In this document: positions 36,410-40,384 of the stretch, in pieces
Position numbering within the stretch: the first letter of the stretch is position 1
Layout: the number at the start of each line of letters is the position of its first letter
Assembly: GCA_963841365.1 (NCBI GenBank)
Contig: CAWJDG010000032.1
Location: forward strand, 25,339-89,338
Length of the DNA: 64,000 nucleotides
Origin: an uncultured Acidobacteriaceae bacterium
GTDB lineage: Bacteria; Acidobacteriota; Terriglobia; Terriglobales; Acidobacteriaceae
Reading direction: 5' to 3'
The notes under the pieces: generated by a model
The model's database searches: none
What the model was told of the DNA's origin: nothing
Seen by the model: the letters and a program-made list of their open reading frames with translations, nothing else
Translations under genes and position numbers: made by a program

Positions 36410-38176
36410 ATGCTCGGCGACCTCGGCCCCCTCTACCCCTACATGCGCCGCTACCGCTGGGGATATGTCCGCGGCACGCTGGCGTGCGTAGCCACAAACA
36501 TTGTTGCCGTCCAGTTTCCCCGCGTACTCGGCATGGCCGTCGACAGGATCGAGAAGGGGACCACTCGCGAACTGATCCTGATCTTTGCCCTGATCCTGAT
36601 CGGCATCAGCCTGGTCAAGGGCATCTTCCTCTACGCGCAGCGCTGGGTTCTCATCGGCATCTCGCGCGAAATCGAATTCGATCTGCGCAACGACCTCTTC
36701 CTCAAGCTCGAGACTCAGGACTCGGGCTTCTATCAGCGCTATCGCACCGGCGACATTATGGCCCGCATGACCAACGACCTGAACGCCGTGCGCATGCTTC
36801 TCGGGCCGGCGCTCATGTACAGCGCCAATACAATCTTCCTCTCTGTCTTTGCGCTGTTCTTTATGCTGCGGATCAGCCCTTATCTGACCATGGTGGCGCT
36901 GGCGCCCATGCCGCTGGCCAGCATCGTCATTCAGTATCTCGGGCGCAAGATTCACGACCGCTTCGAGCGCATCCAGGCCAGCTTTTCCGATATCTCCGCG
37001 CAAGCCCAGGAAAACTACTCCGGCGTCCGCCTCATTCGCGCCTTTGCCCGCGAGGAGTCTCAGATCGGACTCTTCGAGCGCCTCAACCGGCAGTACATCG
37101 GCCGCGCCCTGCGCCTTGTGCAGTTGATGGGCATGTTGTGGCCTACGCTCGAGTTCATCCTCGGCATCTCCATGATCATCACCCTCTTCGCCGGCGGCCA
37201 CCAGGTCCTCGCGCACCGCATCACGGTCGGCCAATTCGTAGCCTTCAGTACCTACATGATTCTGCTTATCTGGCCCATCATCGCGGTGGGCTGGGTCATC
37301 AACATCTTTCAGCGCGGCACGGCCTCAGTCAAGCGCATTGATGAACTGCTTAAATCCGAGCCGGCGATTGACGACAGGCACTCCACGCCCTCAGCCTTTG
37401 GGCCGGGTTTCAGGCTCAACGGAGAGATTGAATTCCGCAATCTCACGTTCAGCTACGACGACACGCCCGGGCAAACACCGGTCTTGCGCGACGTCTCGCT
37501 GCACATTCCTGCCGGATCGAGCCTGGCCATCGTCGGCCCCACCGGCTGCGGCAAAACCACGCTCGTCAACTTGATCCCGCGCCTGTTTGATGCGCCCGAA
37601 GACATGCTTTTCATTGACGGCCGCCCCGTGCGCGAATATCCGCTGGAGGTTTTGCGGCGCAACATCGGCATGGTGCCCCAGGAAACTTTCCTTTTCAGCG
37701 AGACCATCCGCGAAAACCTGGCCTTTGGCGCGCCGAAAGCAAGCGCCAAAGAGCTTCTGGAAGCGGCGCAGGCGGCTCACATTCGCGTGGAATTCGAAGA
37801 GTTTCCGCAAGGCTTTGAAACCATGGTCGGCGAGCGCGGTGTCACACTCTCCGGCGGGCAAAAGCAGCGCGCCGCCATCGCTCGCGCGTTGTTGCGGCGG
37901 CCCGCCATCCTTATCCTCGACGACGCGCTCGCCAGCGTTGACACCTACACGGAAGAGCGCATCCTCGGCGGCTTGCGCGCTTACACAGCCGATACCACGA
38001 CCATCCTCATCTCGCACCGCGTGTCTACGGTGCGCAATGCCGACCGCATCGCCGTGCTCGACAAAGGCCGCATCGTCGAAGTGGGACGCCACGACGAACT
38101 GCTCGCCCTCGACGGCTACTACGCCAGCCTCTACCAGAAGCAGCAGCTCGAAGAAGAGCTGACGGTGGCGGGATAA
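36410..38176 (+). CDS. ABC exporter, fused TMD-NBD (MdlA/MsbA-like)
   Basis: GDIMARMTND, GPTGCGKT, LSGGQKQR, ILDD. Confidence 0.92.
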   Translation: MLGDLGPLYPYMRRYRWGYVRGTLACVATNIVAVQFPRVLGMAVDRIEKGTTRELILIFALILIGISLVKGIFLYAQRWVLIGISREIEFDLRNDLFLKLETQDSGFYQRYRTGDIMARMTNDLNAVRMLLGPALMYSANTIFLSVFALFFMLRISPYLTMVALAPMPLASIVIQYLGRKIHDRFERIQASFSDISAQAQENYSGVRLIRAFAREESQIGLFERLNRQYIGRALRLVQLMGMLWPTLEFILGISMIITLFAGGHQVLAHRITVGQFVAFSTYMILLIWPIIAVGWVINIFQRGTASVKRIDELLKSEPAIDDRHSTPSAFGPGFRLNGEIEFRNLTFSYDDTPGQTPVLRDVSLHIPAGSSLAIVGPTGCGKTTLVNLIPRLFDAPEDMLFIDGRPVREYPLEVLRRNIGMVPQETFLFSETIRENLAFGAPKASAKELLEAAQAAHIRVEFEEFPQGFETMVGERGVTLSGGQKQRAAIARALLRRPAILILDDALASVDTYTEERILGGLRAYTADTTTILISHRVSTVRNADRIAVLDKGRIVEVGRHDELLALDGYYASLYQKQQLEEELTVAG

Positions 38177-38333
38177 CGAGCCGGTTGCTTCATCCTGGTT
38201 TTGCTAGGGCGCGACGCTTCTGAAAAAATTCTCCCATCGCGTTCAAGACCTCGCAAAAAAACATTGCATCTTCACGCATTTCGATTTATGCACCAACCTT
38301 GGTGAAATCCACAAATTTACTTGTTTTTTGCAC

Positions 38334-38363
38334 TTGCTTCCACAGATTGAACGGACGTACTGT
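38334..38363 (+). promoter_or_regulatory. Sigma70-like promoter for the candidate ncRNA
   Basis: TTGCTT 38334-39, 18 nt, TACTGT 38358-63, with an AT-rich upstream tract. Confidence 0.5.
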
Positions 38364-38369
38364 CTCATT

Positions 38370-39237
38370 CAACTGATGACCTTGTAGGGCATTAGGAGTT
38401 GGTTGCCGGAATGGTTGGCGGAACGAAAAGCCGATGAGAATCGGAAAATGGACGCCAGCCCGGCCAGAGGGTGAAACCTGAGGCGAAAGCCGCAGAGGGA
38501 TCGCTGGTCGCGCCAGACATTGCAAAAGCCGACGCAAGTCGGAAGTTGTTAAGCTGGCAGATCCGGAGGGTGCGCGAACCGGTGGATACGGAATACTCAT
38601 CGGCGGCTCAGCTGCCGATGCAAGGTTCGGTTGAAGCAAGGGGTGCATCAAAGGCCCAGCCGGAGGTAGAAACATCCGACGCAAGTCGGGTGAGTCGAAA
38701 CCGGTAAAGCTGGAGGAGGAACAGCCGATGCGAGTCGGAGGTTCGCCGCCGGTGTGGCAGACGGGCGACAGAAGGCGCAAGCTGGAAGTCGCAGCAGCAG
38801 TCAGCGCAAGCTGACAGGTTGCAACAGCAGCCGGCGAAAGTCGGAGGCTGGACACGAGCCGAGCTGAAGGATCAACGCCAGGTGCGAGTCGAAAGTTAGT
38901 CGCCGGCCTTGCCGGAGGAAGGATCGTTCGACGCAAGTCGGATGGATCGCCGCCGGTCGAACGGAAGCGCGCAACAGCCGATGCAAATCGGAGGTTCGCC
39001 ACTGGTCGAGCCGAACGATGGAACGCCGATCCGAGCCGGGAAAGTTGGCCGCCGGTCGAGCCGGATTGCAGAGCAGTCGGCGCAAGTCGAAGGTTCTCAA
39101 GCCGTCGCAGCCAGAGGATGTGACGCCAGCGAAAGCTGGAGGTCAGCCGCTGGGGTAGCCGGAGGACGCAACAACCGGCTGTACTATGAGTTATCAAGAT
39201 TGAAACGCCAGAGGCTTCGGTCTCTGGCGTTTTCAAT
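38370..39237 (+). ncRNA. Candidate large modular structured ncRNA (~49-nt GNRA-hairpin units)
   Basis: 12 clear GNRA-capped hairpins, ~49-nt period, compensatory stem changes, 5'/3' end pairing, flanking promoter and terminator. Confidence 0.75.
39199..39237 (+). terminator. Strong intrinsic terminator
   Basis: AAACGCCAGAGGC-TTCG-GTCTCTGGCGTTT with a T-tract; C(UUCG)G loop reads correctly on the + strand. Confidence 0.85.
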
Positions 39238-39342
39238 TTACGGCCATTTCTCCCGAACACCTGGCCGCTGCATCCCCGCCGTGCTCCTCGTCACCGCGCC
39301 CTCCGCCACACTCCGCATTACACTGGCCGTGGAGAGTCACTC

Positions 39343-39846
39343 ATGTCATCCGGGTTCATCAGAAAGAGCGCGACCGCCATCGCCGCCCTCGCATTCGTGT
39401 GCCTTTTTGAATTACCTCCGCGCGCCATCGCCCAATGGGCGTCGCCGCAGCCGGCCAGCGCAACGACCATTCCGGCCGCCCAGCTCATCCAGCCCGAAGC
39501 GCTCAACCGCCTGCTTCACTCCCTCGGCGCTGACAAGCCCCTCATCCTGCAGGTCGGCTCGCGCATGATGTTCGCCCAAGCCCACATTCCCGGCTCGGAG
39601 TACGCGGGCCCCGGCTCGCAATCGGAAGGACTGCAGCAGTTGCGCGCCCGCGTCGCCTCGCTCCCCCGGTCGAGCTTCATCGTCCTCTACTGTGGCTGTT
39701 GTCCGTGGAATCGCTGCCCTAACGTCGGCCCTGCCTACAATCTGCTGCACGAAATGGGTTTCGCCCGTGTCAAAGTTTTGTACCTCGCCGACAACTTCGG
39801 CACCGATTGGGCCGGCAAAGGCTACCCGATTGAGAGCGTTCACTAG
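39343..39846 (+). CDS. Secreted rhodanese-like domain protein
   Basis: Signal peptide, AHIPGS, IVLYCGCCPWNRCPNV, DWAGKGYP. Confidence 0.8.
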   Translation: MSSGFIRKSATAIAALAFVCLFELPPRAIAQWASPQPASATTIPAAQLIQPEALNRLLHSLGADKPLILQVGSRMMFAQAHIPGSEYAGPGSQSEGLQQLRARVASLPRSSFIVLYCGCCPWNRCPNVGPAYNLLHEMGFARVKVLYLADNFGTDWAGKGYPIESVH

Positions 39847-39850
39847 CGCC

Positions 39851-40384
39851 GTGACTTCTGCGCCAACAGAACGCCGCGGTCTCCTCCGCGCACTTTTTGT
39901 CGCGCTCATCACCGCGTCTCTCGCCACTGCGGCCAAGCACGCCGCCACCACTCAAGAAACCCTCCTTAACCACCCCGCGCCCCAGTTCTCCCTGTCTGAC
40001 CTCAACGGCCGACCGCTCTCGCTCGAGCGCTACCGCGGCAAAGTCGTGCTGCTCAACTTCTGGGCCACCTGGTGTGCGCCGTGCCTGATTGAGATGCCCA
40101 CCTTCGCCGCGTGGCAACGTCAATACGGCCCGCAAGGCTTGCAGGTCATCGGCATCTCTATGGACGACACCGCCGCGCCTGCGCGCCACACCGTCCATCG
40201 CCTCAACCTCAACTACCCCGTGGCCGTGGGCAATGCTCGCCTTGGCGCTCGCTACGGCGGAGTCCTCGGCCTGCCGCTCACATTCCTCATCGACCGCCGC
40301 GGCATAATCCATGCGCGTTTCCAGGGTGAGACCGATTTGAAATTGATCGAGGACGGAGCGAGTGCGCTTCTGGCCAAGCCTTGA
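39851..40384 (+). CDS. TlpA-family thiol:disulfide oxidoreductase
   Basis: GKVVLLNFWATWCAPC, GLPLTFLID. Confidence 0.9.
   Translation: MTSAPTERRGLLRALFVALITASLATAAKHAATTQETLLNHPAPQFSLSDLNGRPLSLERYRGKVVLLNFWATWCAPCLIEMPTFAAWQRQYGPQGLQVIGISMDDTAAPARHTVHRLNLNYPVAVGNARLGARYGGVLGLPLTFLIDRRGIIHARFQGETDLKLIEDGASALLAKP

What the first reader, a model, noticed from the sequence alone, without database searches (positions are those of the whole stretch)
38413..39153. 49-nt periodic module: stem / AG-AG internal loop / 5-bp stem / GNRA, with internal covariation
Seen: GNRA loops start at 38436, 38485, 38534, 38681, 38730, 38777, 38806, 38836, 38933, 38983, 39082 and 39131, with degenerate ones near 38884 and 39031. 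Most spacings are 49-50 nt or multiples (147 = 3x49; 99). Apical stems vary but stay paired: CCGAT/ATCGG, CCGAC/GTCGG, CCGAT/GTCGG, TCAGC/GCTGA, CCGGC/GTCGG, TCGGC/GTCGA, CCAGC/GCTGG. Several sit on an AG/AG internal loop, e.g. GAAC-AG-CCGAT-GCGA-GTCGG-AG-GTTC and CAGC-AG-CCGGC-GAAA-GTCGG-AG-GCTG. A period of 49 is not a multiple of 3. Inference: an old tandem amplification under selection for structure rather than sequence. Units could be processed into small RNAs, or dock through tetraloop-receptor contacts.
Basis: seen in the sequence. Interest (0 to 1): 0.85.

Follow-up and report, generated by a model that had tools for sequence, protein, structure and literature searches.

The report
Tandem GNRA-hairpin RNA gene, Terracidiphilus
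This intergenic stretch is a stand-alone gene for an RNA of about 870 bases that codes for no protein and is built from some 16 tandem 49-base hairpins capped by GNRA loops; it is conserved across one genus of peat and soil Acidobacteria, matches no described RNA family, and its function is unknown.

Summary
All 12 named GNRA hairpins are present on the + strand with 49-nt spacing. Dinucleotide shuffles never reproduce this: 10 hairpins against 0.9 expected, and 8 periodic spacings against 0.03.

The array is the body of a single-copy RNA gene at about 38370-39236. It has a conserved promoter block, terminal closing helices and an intrinsic terminator.

Each unit is one long imperfect hairpin: outer CCGG-type stem, purine-rich internal loop, middle stem, tandem purine mismatch, 5-6-bp apical stem, GNRA loop. 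Covariation supports the hairpins and the closing helices. G.U far exceeds A.C, which fixes the strand.

A covariance model of the unit hits only this locus in the own genome. It finds arrays in 106 of 150 genomes of the same genus (labelled Terracidiphilus/Acidobacteriaceae MAGs). It found none in about 290 other Acidobacteriota genomes sampled, nor in 14 viral contigs that share a promoter word.

There is no Rfam match. CsrA is nearly absent from the genus. Neighbouring genes vary, and the minus-strand ORF is not conserved.

Best reading: a multivalent scaffold or sponge RNA with an unknown partner. This mechanism is inferred, not shown.

This scan noted the same family before in another genome (e1-4188686).

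The parts
38289..38308 (+). Conserved upstream palindrome TGCACCA-N4-TGGTGAA; probable operator or enhancer site for a dimeric regulator
   Evidence: Nearly invariant in 18 aligned loci while the sequence further upstream is unrelated. Similar palindromes occur elsewhere in the own genome. Its function is inferred.
38307..38348 (+). Two conserved ATCCACA(G/A)ATT boxes (38307-38317 and 38338-38348) flanking the conserved TTTTGCACTTGC block (38326-37)
   Evidence: Conserved block in the alignment of 18 loci. The pattern TTTGCACTTGNNTYCACAG retrieved at least 120 contigs; of 87 loci in the array set, most came from this scan.
38334..38363 (+). Inferred sigma-70-type promoter: -35-like TTGCTT (38334-38339), 18-nt spacer, -10-like TACTGT (38358-38363). 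The transcription start is inferred near 38369-38372.
   Evidence: The hexamers are conserved as TTGCWT / TAnnnT-like in the aligned loci. The consensus scanner did not call it. No transcript data are available, so this is inferred.
38369..38388 (+). 5' strand of the terminal closing helices (UCAA-C-UGAUGA, then GUAGG)
   Evidence: RNAalifold pairs columns 9-14 with 850-855 and columns 20-23 with 842-845. Across 61 distinct loci the pairs are kept, with AU<->GC and UA<->CG exchanges.
38412..38560 (+). Hairpin units 1-3 (GNRA loops at 38436, 38485, 38534)
   Evidence: Covariance-model hits at 38412-38462 and 38510-38560.
38569..38649 (+). Non-periodic, highly conserved long hairpin without a GNRA loop. 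It sits within the 147-nt gap between the GNRA loops at 38534 and 38681.
   Evidence: A1 columns 207-287: closing stem GAUGCGC/GCGCAUC with a GC<->AU exchange (11 against 7). The interior is nearly invariant in 18 orthologues.
38657..39155 (+). Hairpin units 4-14 (GNRA loops at 38681, 38730, 38777, 38806, 38836, 38884, 38933, 38983, 39082, 39131). This stretch includes three shorter ~29-nt hairpins at 38757-38862 and an invariant non-GNRA unit around 39031.
   Evidence: Covariance-model hits at 38657-38705, 38706-38756, 38812-38862, 38909-38958, 38959-39009, 39058-39108 and 39110-39155.
39180..39203 (+). 3' strand of the terminal closing helices (CUAU, then UUAUCA-AGA-UUGA)
39203..39240 (+). 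Intrinsic terminator: long G+C-rich stem with a UUCG loop, followed by UUUUC
   Evidence: Read in the sequence. Paired in RNAalifold columns 856-898. The same kind of hairpin, with differing stem and loop sequence (UUCG or GCAA loop), ends the array in 72 of 80 loci tested.

Best explanation
Window ~38370-39236 (+) is a stand-alone gene for a structured non-coding RNA of about 870 nt. It belongs to an undescribed family confined, as far as sampled, to one Acidobacteriaceae genus whose MAGs are labelled Terracidiphilus.

Shown:
- The RNA body is a tandem array of ~49-nt imperfect hairpins.
- Each hairpin has an outer CCGG-type stem, a purine-rich internal loop (A-R-G-R), a middle stem, a tandem purine-purine mismatch, a 5-6-bp apical stem and a GNRA tetraloop.
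- The whole array is closed by helices between the 5' end and the segment just before an intrinsic terminator.

Inferred mechanism: the RNA acts as a multivalent scaffold or sponge. Its 10-19 near-equivalent hairpins each present the same structural epitope (GNRA tip, tandem G.A, purine loop at fixed distances). One long-lived transcript could therefore bind many copies of a single partner, most likely a protein that is not CsrA. Its synthesis would be tightly controlled through the conserved operator-like elements in the promoter.

My odds: about 0.9 that it is a structured RNA gene of this architecture, and about 0.45 for the multivalent-partner mechanism.
For: - RNA and strand: GNRA loops occur only on the + strand. 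G.U against A.C at the unforced pair -5/+8 is 82 against 9. The + strand MFE is -390 kcal/mol (z -8.2); the - strand is -304 (z -2.0).
- Covariation: 36 of 257 alifold pairs in 18 orthologues show compensatory changes. The unit alignment has a covariation score of 0.39 (0.33 after model alignment), against at most 0.16 for slid partners and 0.16-0.18 for shuffled partners, with 0 of 500 shuffles as high.
- Outer stem: the partner-shuffle test gives z=13, middle stem z=19.5.
- Gene-like boundaries: conservation among relatives starts at the promoter block and stops at the terminator. The closing helices covary across 61 loci.
- Single copy: all model hits in the own genome fall in this locus.
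- Distribution: arrays are in 106 of 150 genomes of the genus, including 64 of 87 high-quality ones.
- Independence from neighbours: no flanking gene family occurs in more than 24 of 87 loci, and downstream genes lie on either strand.
- For a scaffold or sponge: what is conserved per unit is shape plus a few purines, not stem sequence. Unit length is held at 49 +/- 1 nt while unit number varies from 5 to 19 and RNA length from 513 to 1154 nt. The array is U-poor (12.8% U) and end-closed, as expected of a stable RNA.
Against: - No partner is identified. No RNA-binding protein gene is linked to the locus.
- CsrA, the classic partner of repeat-hairpin sponges, is missing from the own genome and found in only 2 of 60 high-quality genomes of the genus.
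- Strict periodicity is not a feature of the known sponge RNAs (own knowledge of CsrB/RsmZ). It could instead point to an RNA-only architecture.
- There is no expression evidence. The transcription start is inferred from sequence only, and the consensus promoter scan found nothing.
- About 30% of sampled genomes of the genus gave no hit. Some are nearly complete, so the RNA is dispensable or replaced there.
Confidence: 0.5

Rival explanations
1. RNA-only architecture: the hairpins pack against each other, or against a second molecule, through GNRA docking into helical minor grooves such as the conserved CC:GG outer stems. This would build a defined rod, sheet or multimer, in the manner of the large RNAs ROOL, GOLLD and OLE.
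For: - The unit length is strict (49 +/- 1 nt) across clades whose sequence has diverged.
- The tips are nearly all GNRA, and the outer stems are conserved as CCGG.
- The array is tied into a closed multi-hairpin domain by terminal helices.
- Own knowledge: CC:GG steps are helical receptors for GYAA loops (Costa and Michel, cited in PMC1950547 as reference 39).
Against: - No 11-nt receptor motif is present: CCTAAG occurs once and TATGG nine times in 87 RNAs, never together.
- Loop identity covaries only with its own closing pair; all other positions have z of 3.7 or less.
- Neighbouring hairpins are joined at their bases, so their tips point the same way.
- Unit number varies from 5 to 19, which fits poorly with one fixed 3D object.
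Confidence: 0.2
2. Precursor RNA: the array is cut between hairpins into ~49-nt small RNAs that act individually.
For: The layout is tandem, unit-sized hairpins with 3-5-nt linkers. The layout of promoter, repeats, terminator recalls ToxI-type arrays (own knowledge; PMC3401426 surfaced but was not read).
Against: - Stem sequences drift freely by compensatory change, so the units share no common seed for base pairing.
- Covarying 5'/3' closing helices argue that the full-length molecule is the functional form.
- Linkers are short and the RNA is U-poor. Uninterrupted helices are only about 6 bp. By inference these are poor RNase E and RNase III substrates.
Confidence: 0.1
3. Cis-acting leader or type III antitoxin-like array that controls the downstream gene (here a rhodanese-like protein at 39343-39846).
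For: The downstream gene is on the same strand, 107 nt after the terminator. It is conserved in about 27 of 87 loci. A terminator between repeats and gene is the ToxIN layout (own knowledge).
Against: - The downstream gene differs in most loci (MFS transporter, DUF6640, amidohydrolase and others) and lies on either strand.
- The product is a weak rhodanese-domain match (PF00581, 22.8 bits against a cut-off of 22.2); its hydrophobic N-terminal stretch looks signal-like on reading. No Pfam family other than rhodanese matched.
- The units are only about 36% identical, unlike the near-identical antitoxin repeats.
Confidence: 0.04
4. A DNA-level element: a REP/BIME-like repeat, a cluster of protein-binding palindromes, or a protein-coding gene on the minus strand (ORF 38286-39260, 324 codons).
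For: The stems are palindromic in DNA. A 324-codon open frame exists on the - strand.
Against: - It is a single locus on one strand in the genome.
- There is a strong strand asymmetry: G.U far exceeds A.C, GNRA occurs on one strand only, GC skew is +0.22 and AT skew +0.3.
- The conserved purine-purine mismatches cannot be symmetric in DNA.
- The open frame shrinks to 148-293 codons in orthologues, and essentially all indels are not multiples of 3.
- It has no Pfam match.
Confidence: 0.02

Closest known systems
CsrB / RsmX-Y-Z protein-sponge RNAs
   Same: A stand-alone RNA gene with its own promoter and terminator. The body is made of many (~18) imperfectly repeated hairpins, and the function comes from multivalency. 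This is the best 'works like' model.
   Different: The defining GGA motifs in hairpin loops are absent, because the loops here are GNRA. Hairpins here are about 46-49 nt long and strictly periodic. CsrA is not encoded in the own genome and is found in only 2 of 60 genomes of the genus. No Rfam family matched in the searches run: E up to 1 over window 37500-40000, gathering threshold over the whole window, and E up to 0.1 over ten homologous loci.
MAEB motif (Burkholderia; Weinberg et al. 2007, PMC1950547)
   Same: A single hairpin repeated head to tail (2-12 copies) with conserved linkers and symmetric purines opposite each other in the stem. Its authors also raised a CsrB-like role.
   Different: MAEB lies in 5' UTRs of metabolic genes in beta-proteobacteria, at many loci per genome. 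Here there is one terminator-bounded gene per genome in Acidobacteria, with longer units and end-closing helices. No Rfam model matched.
Large structured bacterial ncRNAs of unknown or newly found function (OLE, GOLLD, ROOL, HEARO, raiA)
   Same: Size class (0.5-1.2 kb), rich in GNRA-capped helices, narrow taxonomic range, and no obvious linked function.
   Different: Those RNAs are built from unique, non-repeated domains. This one is almost wholly a periodic array. No match to any Rfam model, and it was not found on viral contigs.
ToxI-type (type III) antitoxin repeat RNAs
   Same: Promoter, tandem short RNA repeats, then a terminator.
   Different: Antitoxin repeats are near-identical and are followed by the toxin gene whose product cuts them. 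Here the units are diverged and the downstream gene is variable and unrelated.

Membership tests
CsrB/RsmZ sponge RNAs | GGA (ANGGA) motifs displayed in hairpin loops or single strands | tested here: not met
   By the unit definition used (apical GNRA hairpin with at least 4 bp, neighbour at 46-52 nt), the loops are GNRA: GCAA 48%, GAAA 20%, GCGA 19%. GGA occurs only at stem/internal-loop junctions.
CsrB/RsmZ sponge RNAs | CsrA/RsmA partner encoded by the organism | tested here: not met
   PF02599 gave no hit in the own genome (76% complete) and hits in 2 of 60 high-quality genomes of the genus. The control genomes scored positive.
CsrB/RsmZ sponge RNAs | Match to the Rfam covariance models | tested here: not met
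   No family matched at E up to 1 in window 37500-40000, at gathering thresholds in the whole window, or at E up to 0.1 in ten homologous loci.
MAEB motif | Tandem hairpins in the 5' UTR of metabolic genes, at many loci per genome | tested here: not met
   One locus per genome, terminator-bounded, with variable neighbours on either strand.
MAEB motif | Hairpin with symmetric purines in the stem, repeated head to tail | tested here: met
   Position -7/+10 is A.G, and -6/+9 or -8/+11 is G.A. This is a resemblance only; there is no Rfam match.
Type III antitoxin (ToxI-like) | Near-identical tandem repeats followed by a cognate toxin gene | tested here: not met
   Lag-49 identity is 0.36. The downstream gene is rhodanese-like here and different elsewhere.
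REP/BIME-type dispersed DNA repeats | Many copies scattered over the genome in both orientations | tested here: not met
   All 9 model hits in the 4.9-Mb assembly are in this locus on the + strand.
CRISPR array | Identical repeats alternating with unique spacers | tested here: not met
   No exact repeats: TRF finds none. The whole unit varies and stays paired.
GAAA tetraloop / 11-nt receptor module | CCUAAG...UAUGG receptor present together with GAAA loops | tested here: not met
   One CCTAAG and nine TATGG in 87 RNAs, never in the same RNA.
Structured ncRNA gene (generic) | Compensatory base changes, strand-specific G.U, own terminator, conservation limited to the transcript | tested here: met
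Structured ncRNA gene (generic) | Detected transcript of the predicted size | not testable with these tools

The most novel reading that the evidence does not exclude
The RNA is a new kind of modular bacterial ribonucleoprotein or RNA-only assembly. In this reading, a genetically expandable chain of identical-length GNRA hairpins (5-19 units, gained and lost in blocks of one to six) forms a regular higher-order lattice or filament, or titrates a so far unknown hairpin-binding protein, with copy number tuned by unit number. It would be a bacterial counterpart of repeat-built eukaryotic lncRNA scaffolds and unrelated to the Csr/Rsm system.
Probability: 0.3. Interest if true: 0.85.

Novelty: new variant of a known kind. 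Interest (0 to 1): 0.72.

Why it matters
Large bacterial non-coding RNAs with strong structural conservation are rare, and nearly every one studied has revealed new biology.

This RNA is unusual in being built almost entirely from one repeated structural module whose length is fixed while its sequence and copy number drift. That makes it a natural system for two questions: how tandem RNA modules evolve under purely structural selection, and what multivalent hairpin display does in a cell that lacks the Csr/Rsm system.

It occurs in most sampled members of a genus represented here by MAGs whose labels point to peat and acidic soils (SPRUCE, palsa/fen, MFD), so it may matter for the physiology of these organisms.

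It also supplies dozens of natural sequence variants of a 49-nt GNRA / tandem-G.A hairpin for RNA structural work.

Tried and rejected
- Mini-hairpin model (CCGG-N5-CCGG between units): my own first reading. Rejected because pairing is no better than with shuffled partners (z 0.5), whereas the outer stem that encloses the GNRA arm gives z 13.
- CsrB-like sponge for CsrA: rejected.
- Known RNA families: no match for the window or for ten homologous loci.
- Minus-strand ORF P0001: no Pfam match, and the frame is not conserved.
- Linked partner gene: clustering all flanking ORFs of 87 loci gave no family in more than 24 loci. The recurrent ones are rhodanese, a redoxin, an MFS transporter and others, none of them RNA-related.
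- Phage association: the promoter word occurs on 14 viral contigs, but none holds a unit.
- Loop-receptor covariation: none beyond the closing pair.
- NtrC/sigma-54 reading of the upstream palindrome: no GG-N10-GC promoter follows it. The genes next to the other copies of the palindrome are not nitrogen genes; they are a MaoC dehydratase, a GH2 hydrolase, a menaquinone-synthesis gene and dnaA.
- DnaA-box reading of the ATCCACAG boxes: the word is not enriched in the genome (131 hits against about 150 expected).
- Literature searches for a description of this RNA found none.
- Tandem Repeats Finder and the sigma-70 consensus scan were uninformative.

Full report
**Observation.** The region lies in a 1.17-kb gap between an ABC exporter gene (36410-38176, +) and a small rhodanese-like gene (39343-39846, +).

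The spacings are 49, 49, 147, 49, 47, 29, 30, 48, 49, 50, 99 and 49 nt. No such hairpin lies there on the - strand. The two 1-kb bins hold 10 of the 32 + strand hairpins of the whole window.

In 2000 dinucleotide-preserving shuffles:
- Hairpins with at least 4 bp average 0.88 (max 5), against 10 observed.
- Adjacent spacings of 47-51 nt average 0.03 (max 2), against 8 observed.
- Sequence autocorrelation peaks at 49, 98/99 and 147 nt (z 5.5, about 4, and 5.9).

**It is an RNA, read from the + strand.**
- The + strand is purine-rich, with GC skew +0.22 and AT skew +0.3.
- At stem positions that my hairpin filter did not force, G.U outnumbers A.C by 82 to 9.
- The + strand folds to -390 kcal/mol (z -8.2 against shuffles). 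The complement reaches only -304 kcal/mol (z -2.0).
- The 324-codon open frame on the - strand is a by-product of the U-poor composition. It has no Pfam match, shrinks to 148-293 codons in orthologues, and essentially every indel between orthologues is not a multiple of three.

**Gene boundaries.** Seven genomes of the same genus carry full-length homologues at 76-85% identity. In more distant members only the first ~110 nt and the terminator still align, yet the stretch between them is again an array of GNRA hairpins at ~49-nt spacing.

Conservation begins abruptly about 80 nt upstream of the first helix, with a block that is nearly invariant in 18 loci. The block reads TGCACCA-N4-TGGTGAAATCCACAGATT, a variable spacer, TTTTGCACTTGC(A/T)TCCACAGATTGA, and a TACTGT-like hexamer. 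I read TTGCTT (38334-39), an 18-nt spacer and TACTGT (38358-63) as the promoter, with the start near 38369-38372. This is inference: the consensus scanner did not call it and no transcript data exist.

The 3' end is a long G+C-rich hairpin with a UUCG loop and a U-run (39203-39240). An equivalent terminator-like hairpin ends the array in 72 of 80 loci tested.

**Global architecture.** The 5' end (UCAA-C-UGAUGA, then GUAGG) pairs with the segment just before the terminator (CUAU, then UUAUCA-AGA-UUGA). Across 61 distinct loci these pairs are kept in 45-61 cases. They show exchanges such as A-U (29) / G-C (17) / G-U (9), and U-A (31) / C-G (9) / U-G (17). The array is thus a closed, multi-hairpin domain.

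Predicted RNA length ranges from 513 to 1154 nt (median 874), with 5-19 GNRA hairpins.

In the window's clade a highly conserved 81-nt non-GNRA hairpin (38569-38649) sits within the 147-nt gap between two GNRA loops. It has a GC<->AU exchange in its closing stem. Three shorter ~29-nt hairpins sit at 38757-38862.

**Unit anatomy.** I collected 811 periodic units from 87 loci, of which 490 are non-redundant. The consensus, numbered from the loop G, is:
- outer stem at about -21..-18 with +21..+24 (mostly CCGG/CCGG);
- A-R-G-R on the 5' side of an internal loop;
- middle stem -12..-9 with +12..+15;
- A.G at -7/+10, with G.A at -6/+9 (the window's 'AG/AG' form) or at -8/+11 (the 'GA/GA' form of other clades);
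- apical stem of 5-6 bp;
- GNRA loop: GCAA 48%, GAAA 20%, GCGA 19%.

My first idea was a separate CCGG-N5-CCGG mini-hairpin between units. It fails: pairing is no better than with partners taken from other units (z 0.5). The outer stem that encloses the GNRA arm gives z 13, and the middle stem z 19.5. In 773 of 811 units the MFE fold of the 51-nt unit is a single hairpin spanning it.

Covariation is strong:
- In the 18-orthologue alignment, 36 predicted pairs carry double changes.
- In 110 diverse units the covariation score is 0.39, against at most 0.16 for slid partners and 0.18 for shuffled partners.
- After alignment to the model it is 0.33, against at most 0.14 and 0.16.
- Caveat: the four loop-proximal pairs were required by my selection, so the weight rests on the other pairs, for example AU 62 / GC 42 / GU 15 at one middle-stem pair.

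**Distribution.** A covariance model of the unit (R1) hits nine times in the 64-kb window with filters off, and nine times in the whole 4.9-Mb assembly. All hits fall in this locus on the + strand.
- In 150 sampled genomes of the same genus, 106 have hits (64 of 87 high-quality genomes). In the matches listed, each genome's hits fall on one contig and strand.
- In 150 genomes from 142 other genera of the family, only two isolated marginal hits appeared.
- In a phylum-wide sample of 150 genomes, arrays were found only in the three members of the own genus.

Public contigs that carry the promoter word are labelled Terracidiphilus sp. or Acidobacteriaceae MAGs; the isolate labels (SPRUCE, palsa/fen, MFD) point to peat and soil. 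None of 14 viral contigs with that word holds a unit. These are samples, and the searches used strict filters, so 'not found in those searched' is the correct wording.

**Evolution of the array.** Paralogous units are about 36% identical at lag 49 in the window, while orthologous units are 80-86% identical between species. The amplification therefore predates these species.

Units also have clade-specific flavours: best-match identity is about 0.5 between clades and 0.67-0.78 within an RNA. Some lineages show stronger identity at 147/148 or 294 nt than at 98 nt, which indicates later block duplications of three or six units.

**What it is not.**
- No Rfam 15 family matches the window or ten homologous loci.
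- It is not a CsrB-type sponge in the strict sense. The loops are GNRA, not GGA. CsrA is absent from the own genome and present in only 2 of 60 high-quality genomes of the genus.
- It is not a leader or a ToxI-like antitoxin. The downstream rhodanese-like gene is conserved in only about 27 of 87 loci. Other loci have an MFS transporter, a DUF6640 protein, an amidohydrolase and so on, on either strand.
- It is not a REP-like dispersed element and not a CRISPR array.

**Mechanism.** Selection keeps three things: the shape of each hairpin, a handful of purines, and the hairpin length. It does not keep stem sequence or unit number.

That pattern fits a molecule whose function is to display many equivalent structural epitopes. 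This means a multivalent scaffold or sponge for a partner that recognises the GNRA tip and/or the purine-rich loops at fixed distances. End-closure and the U-poor composition suggest a stable full-length RNA rather than a precursor. I commit to this reading at about 0.45.

The main rival (0.2) is an RNA-only higher-order structure using GNRA docking into the conserved CC:GG helices. Strict periodicity favours it. The lack of any receptor motif, the lack of loop-receptor covariation and the variable unit number weigh against it. Processing into unit-sized RNAs (0.1) cannot be excluded without small-RNA data.

**Comparison and novelty.** The closest functional analogue is CsrB/RsmZ. The closest published structural analogue is the MAEB tandem hairpin of Burkholderia, which also has symmetric purines in its stem (PMC1950547).

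The RNA fails the defining features of both families. It therefore belongs to a new family whose principle (multivalent tandem hairpins) is known but whose module, strict period, closure and partner are not. My results agree with it, except that I tested and rejected the CsrA link.

**Limits.**
- There is no expression or probing data.
- The promoter and transcription start are inferred.
- The genomes searched are unnamed species representatives and partly incomplete.
- Units are related by descent, so shuffle statistics overstate independence.
- The outer stem is blurred in ungapped alignments and rests mainly on the partner-shuffle test and on compensatory changes in the orthologue alignment.

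Noticed in passing
window 38289-38308; own genome C5:20933, C29:7108, C29:68580 (loci L141-L143, around position 2500), C37:28482 (L144), C89:4530 (L145): The palindrome upstream of the RNA gene (TGCACCA-N4-TGGTGA/CA) recurs in the genome. Three copies head a repeated non-coding element of about 200 nt. That element reads AATTGCACCA-N4-TGGTGCAA, then CGTAAGTCCTTTAGATCNGGATCTTACGG, then AACCCCTTTGGAATCATCGGGTTACAGCCAGAGATCAAAGG, then GTTGAAAAGAAA, and ends in a G-run. One further copy lies 57 nt upstream of dnaA. It may be a shared regulator site or part of the dispersed acidobacterial repeat noted earlier (e1-2466941, e1-5452657).
   Followed up: partly
window 38569-38649: An 81-nt hairpin without a GNRA loop interrupts the array. 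It is the most conserved part of the RNA in 18 orthologues, with invariant GAAUACUCAUCG and CGAUGCAAGGUUCGGUUGAA. It is a likely specialised binding or folding domain, and it seems specific to the window's clade.
   Followed up: partly
window 39020-39045: The 'degenerate' unit around 39031 (CCGAUCCGAGCCGG) is invariant in all 18 orthologues. It looks like a conserved non-GNRA variant rather than a decayed copy.
   Followed up: no
window 38307-38317 and 38338-38348: Two conserved ATCCACA(G/A)ATT boxes lie 31 nt apart in the promoter region, one of them inside the -35/-10 spacer. They resemble the DnaA-box core, but the word is not enriched genome-wide.
   Followed up: partly
loci L010, L017, L083, L127 (array bodies): In some lineages the array shows higher-order repeats of about 148 and 294 nt, stronger than the 98-nt lag. 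This indicates recent duplication in blocks of three or six units.
   Followed up: partly
window 39343-39846 and the next gene in related loci (e.g. L003:2978-3559): In the window's clade the RNA gene is followed by a rhodanese-like protein with a hydrophobic, signal-like N-terminus (as read from the translation) and then, in related loci, an AhpC/TSA-type redoxin. This is a small thiol/sulfur redox pair, probably only syntenic with the RNA.
   Followed up: no
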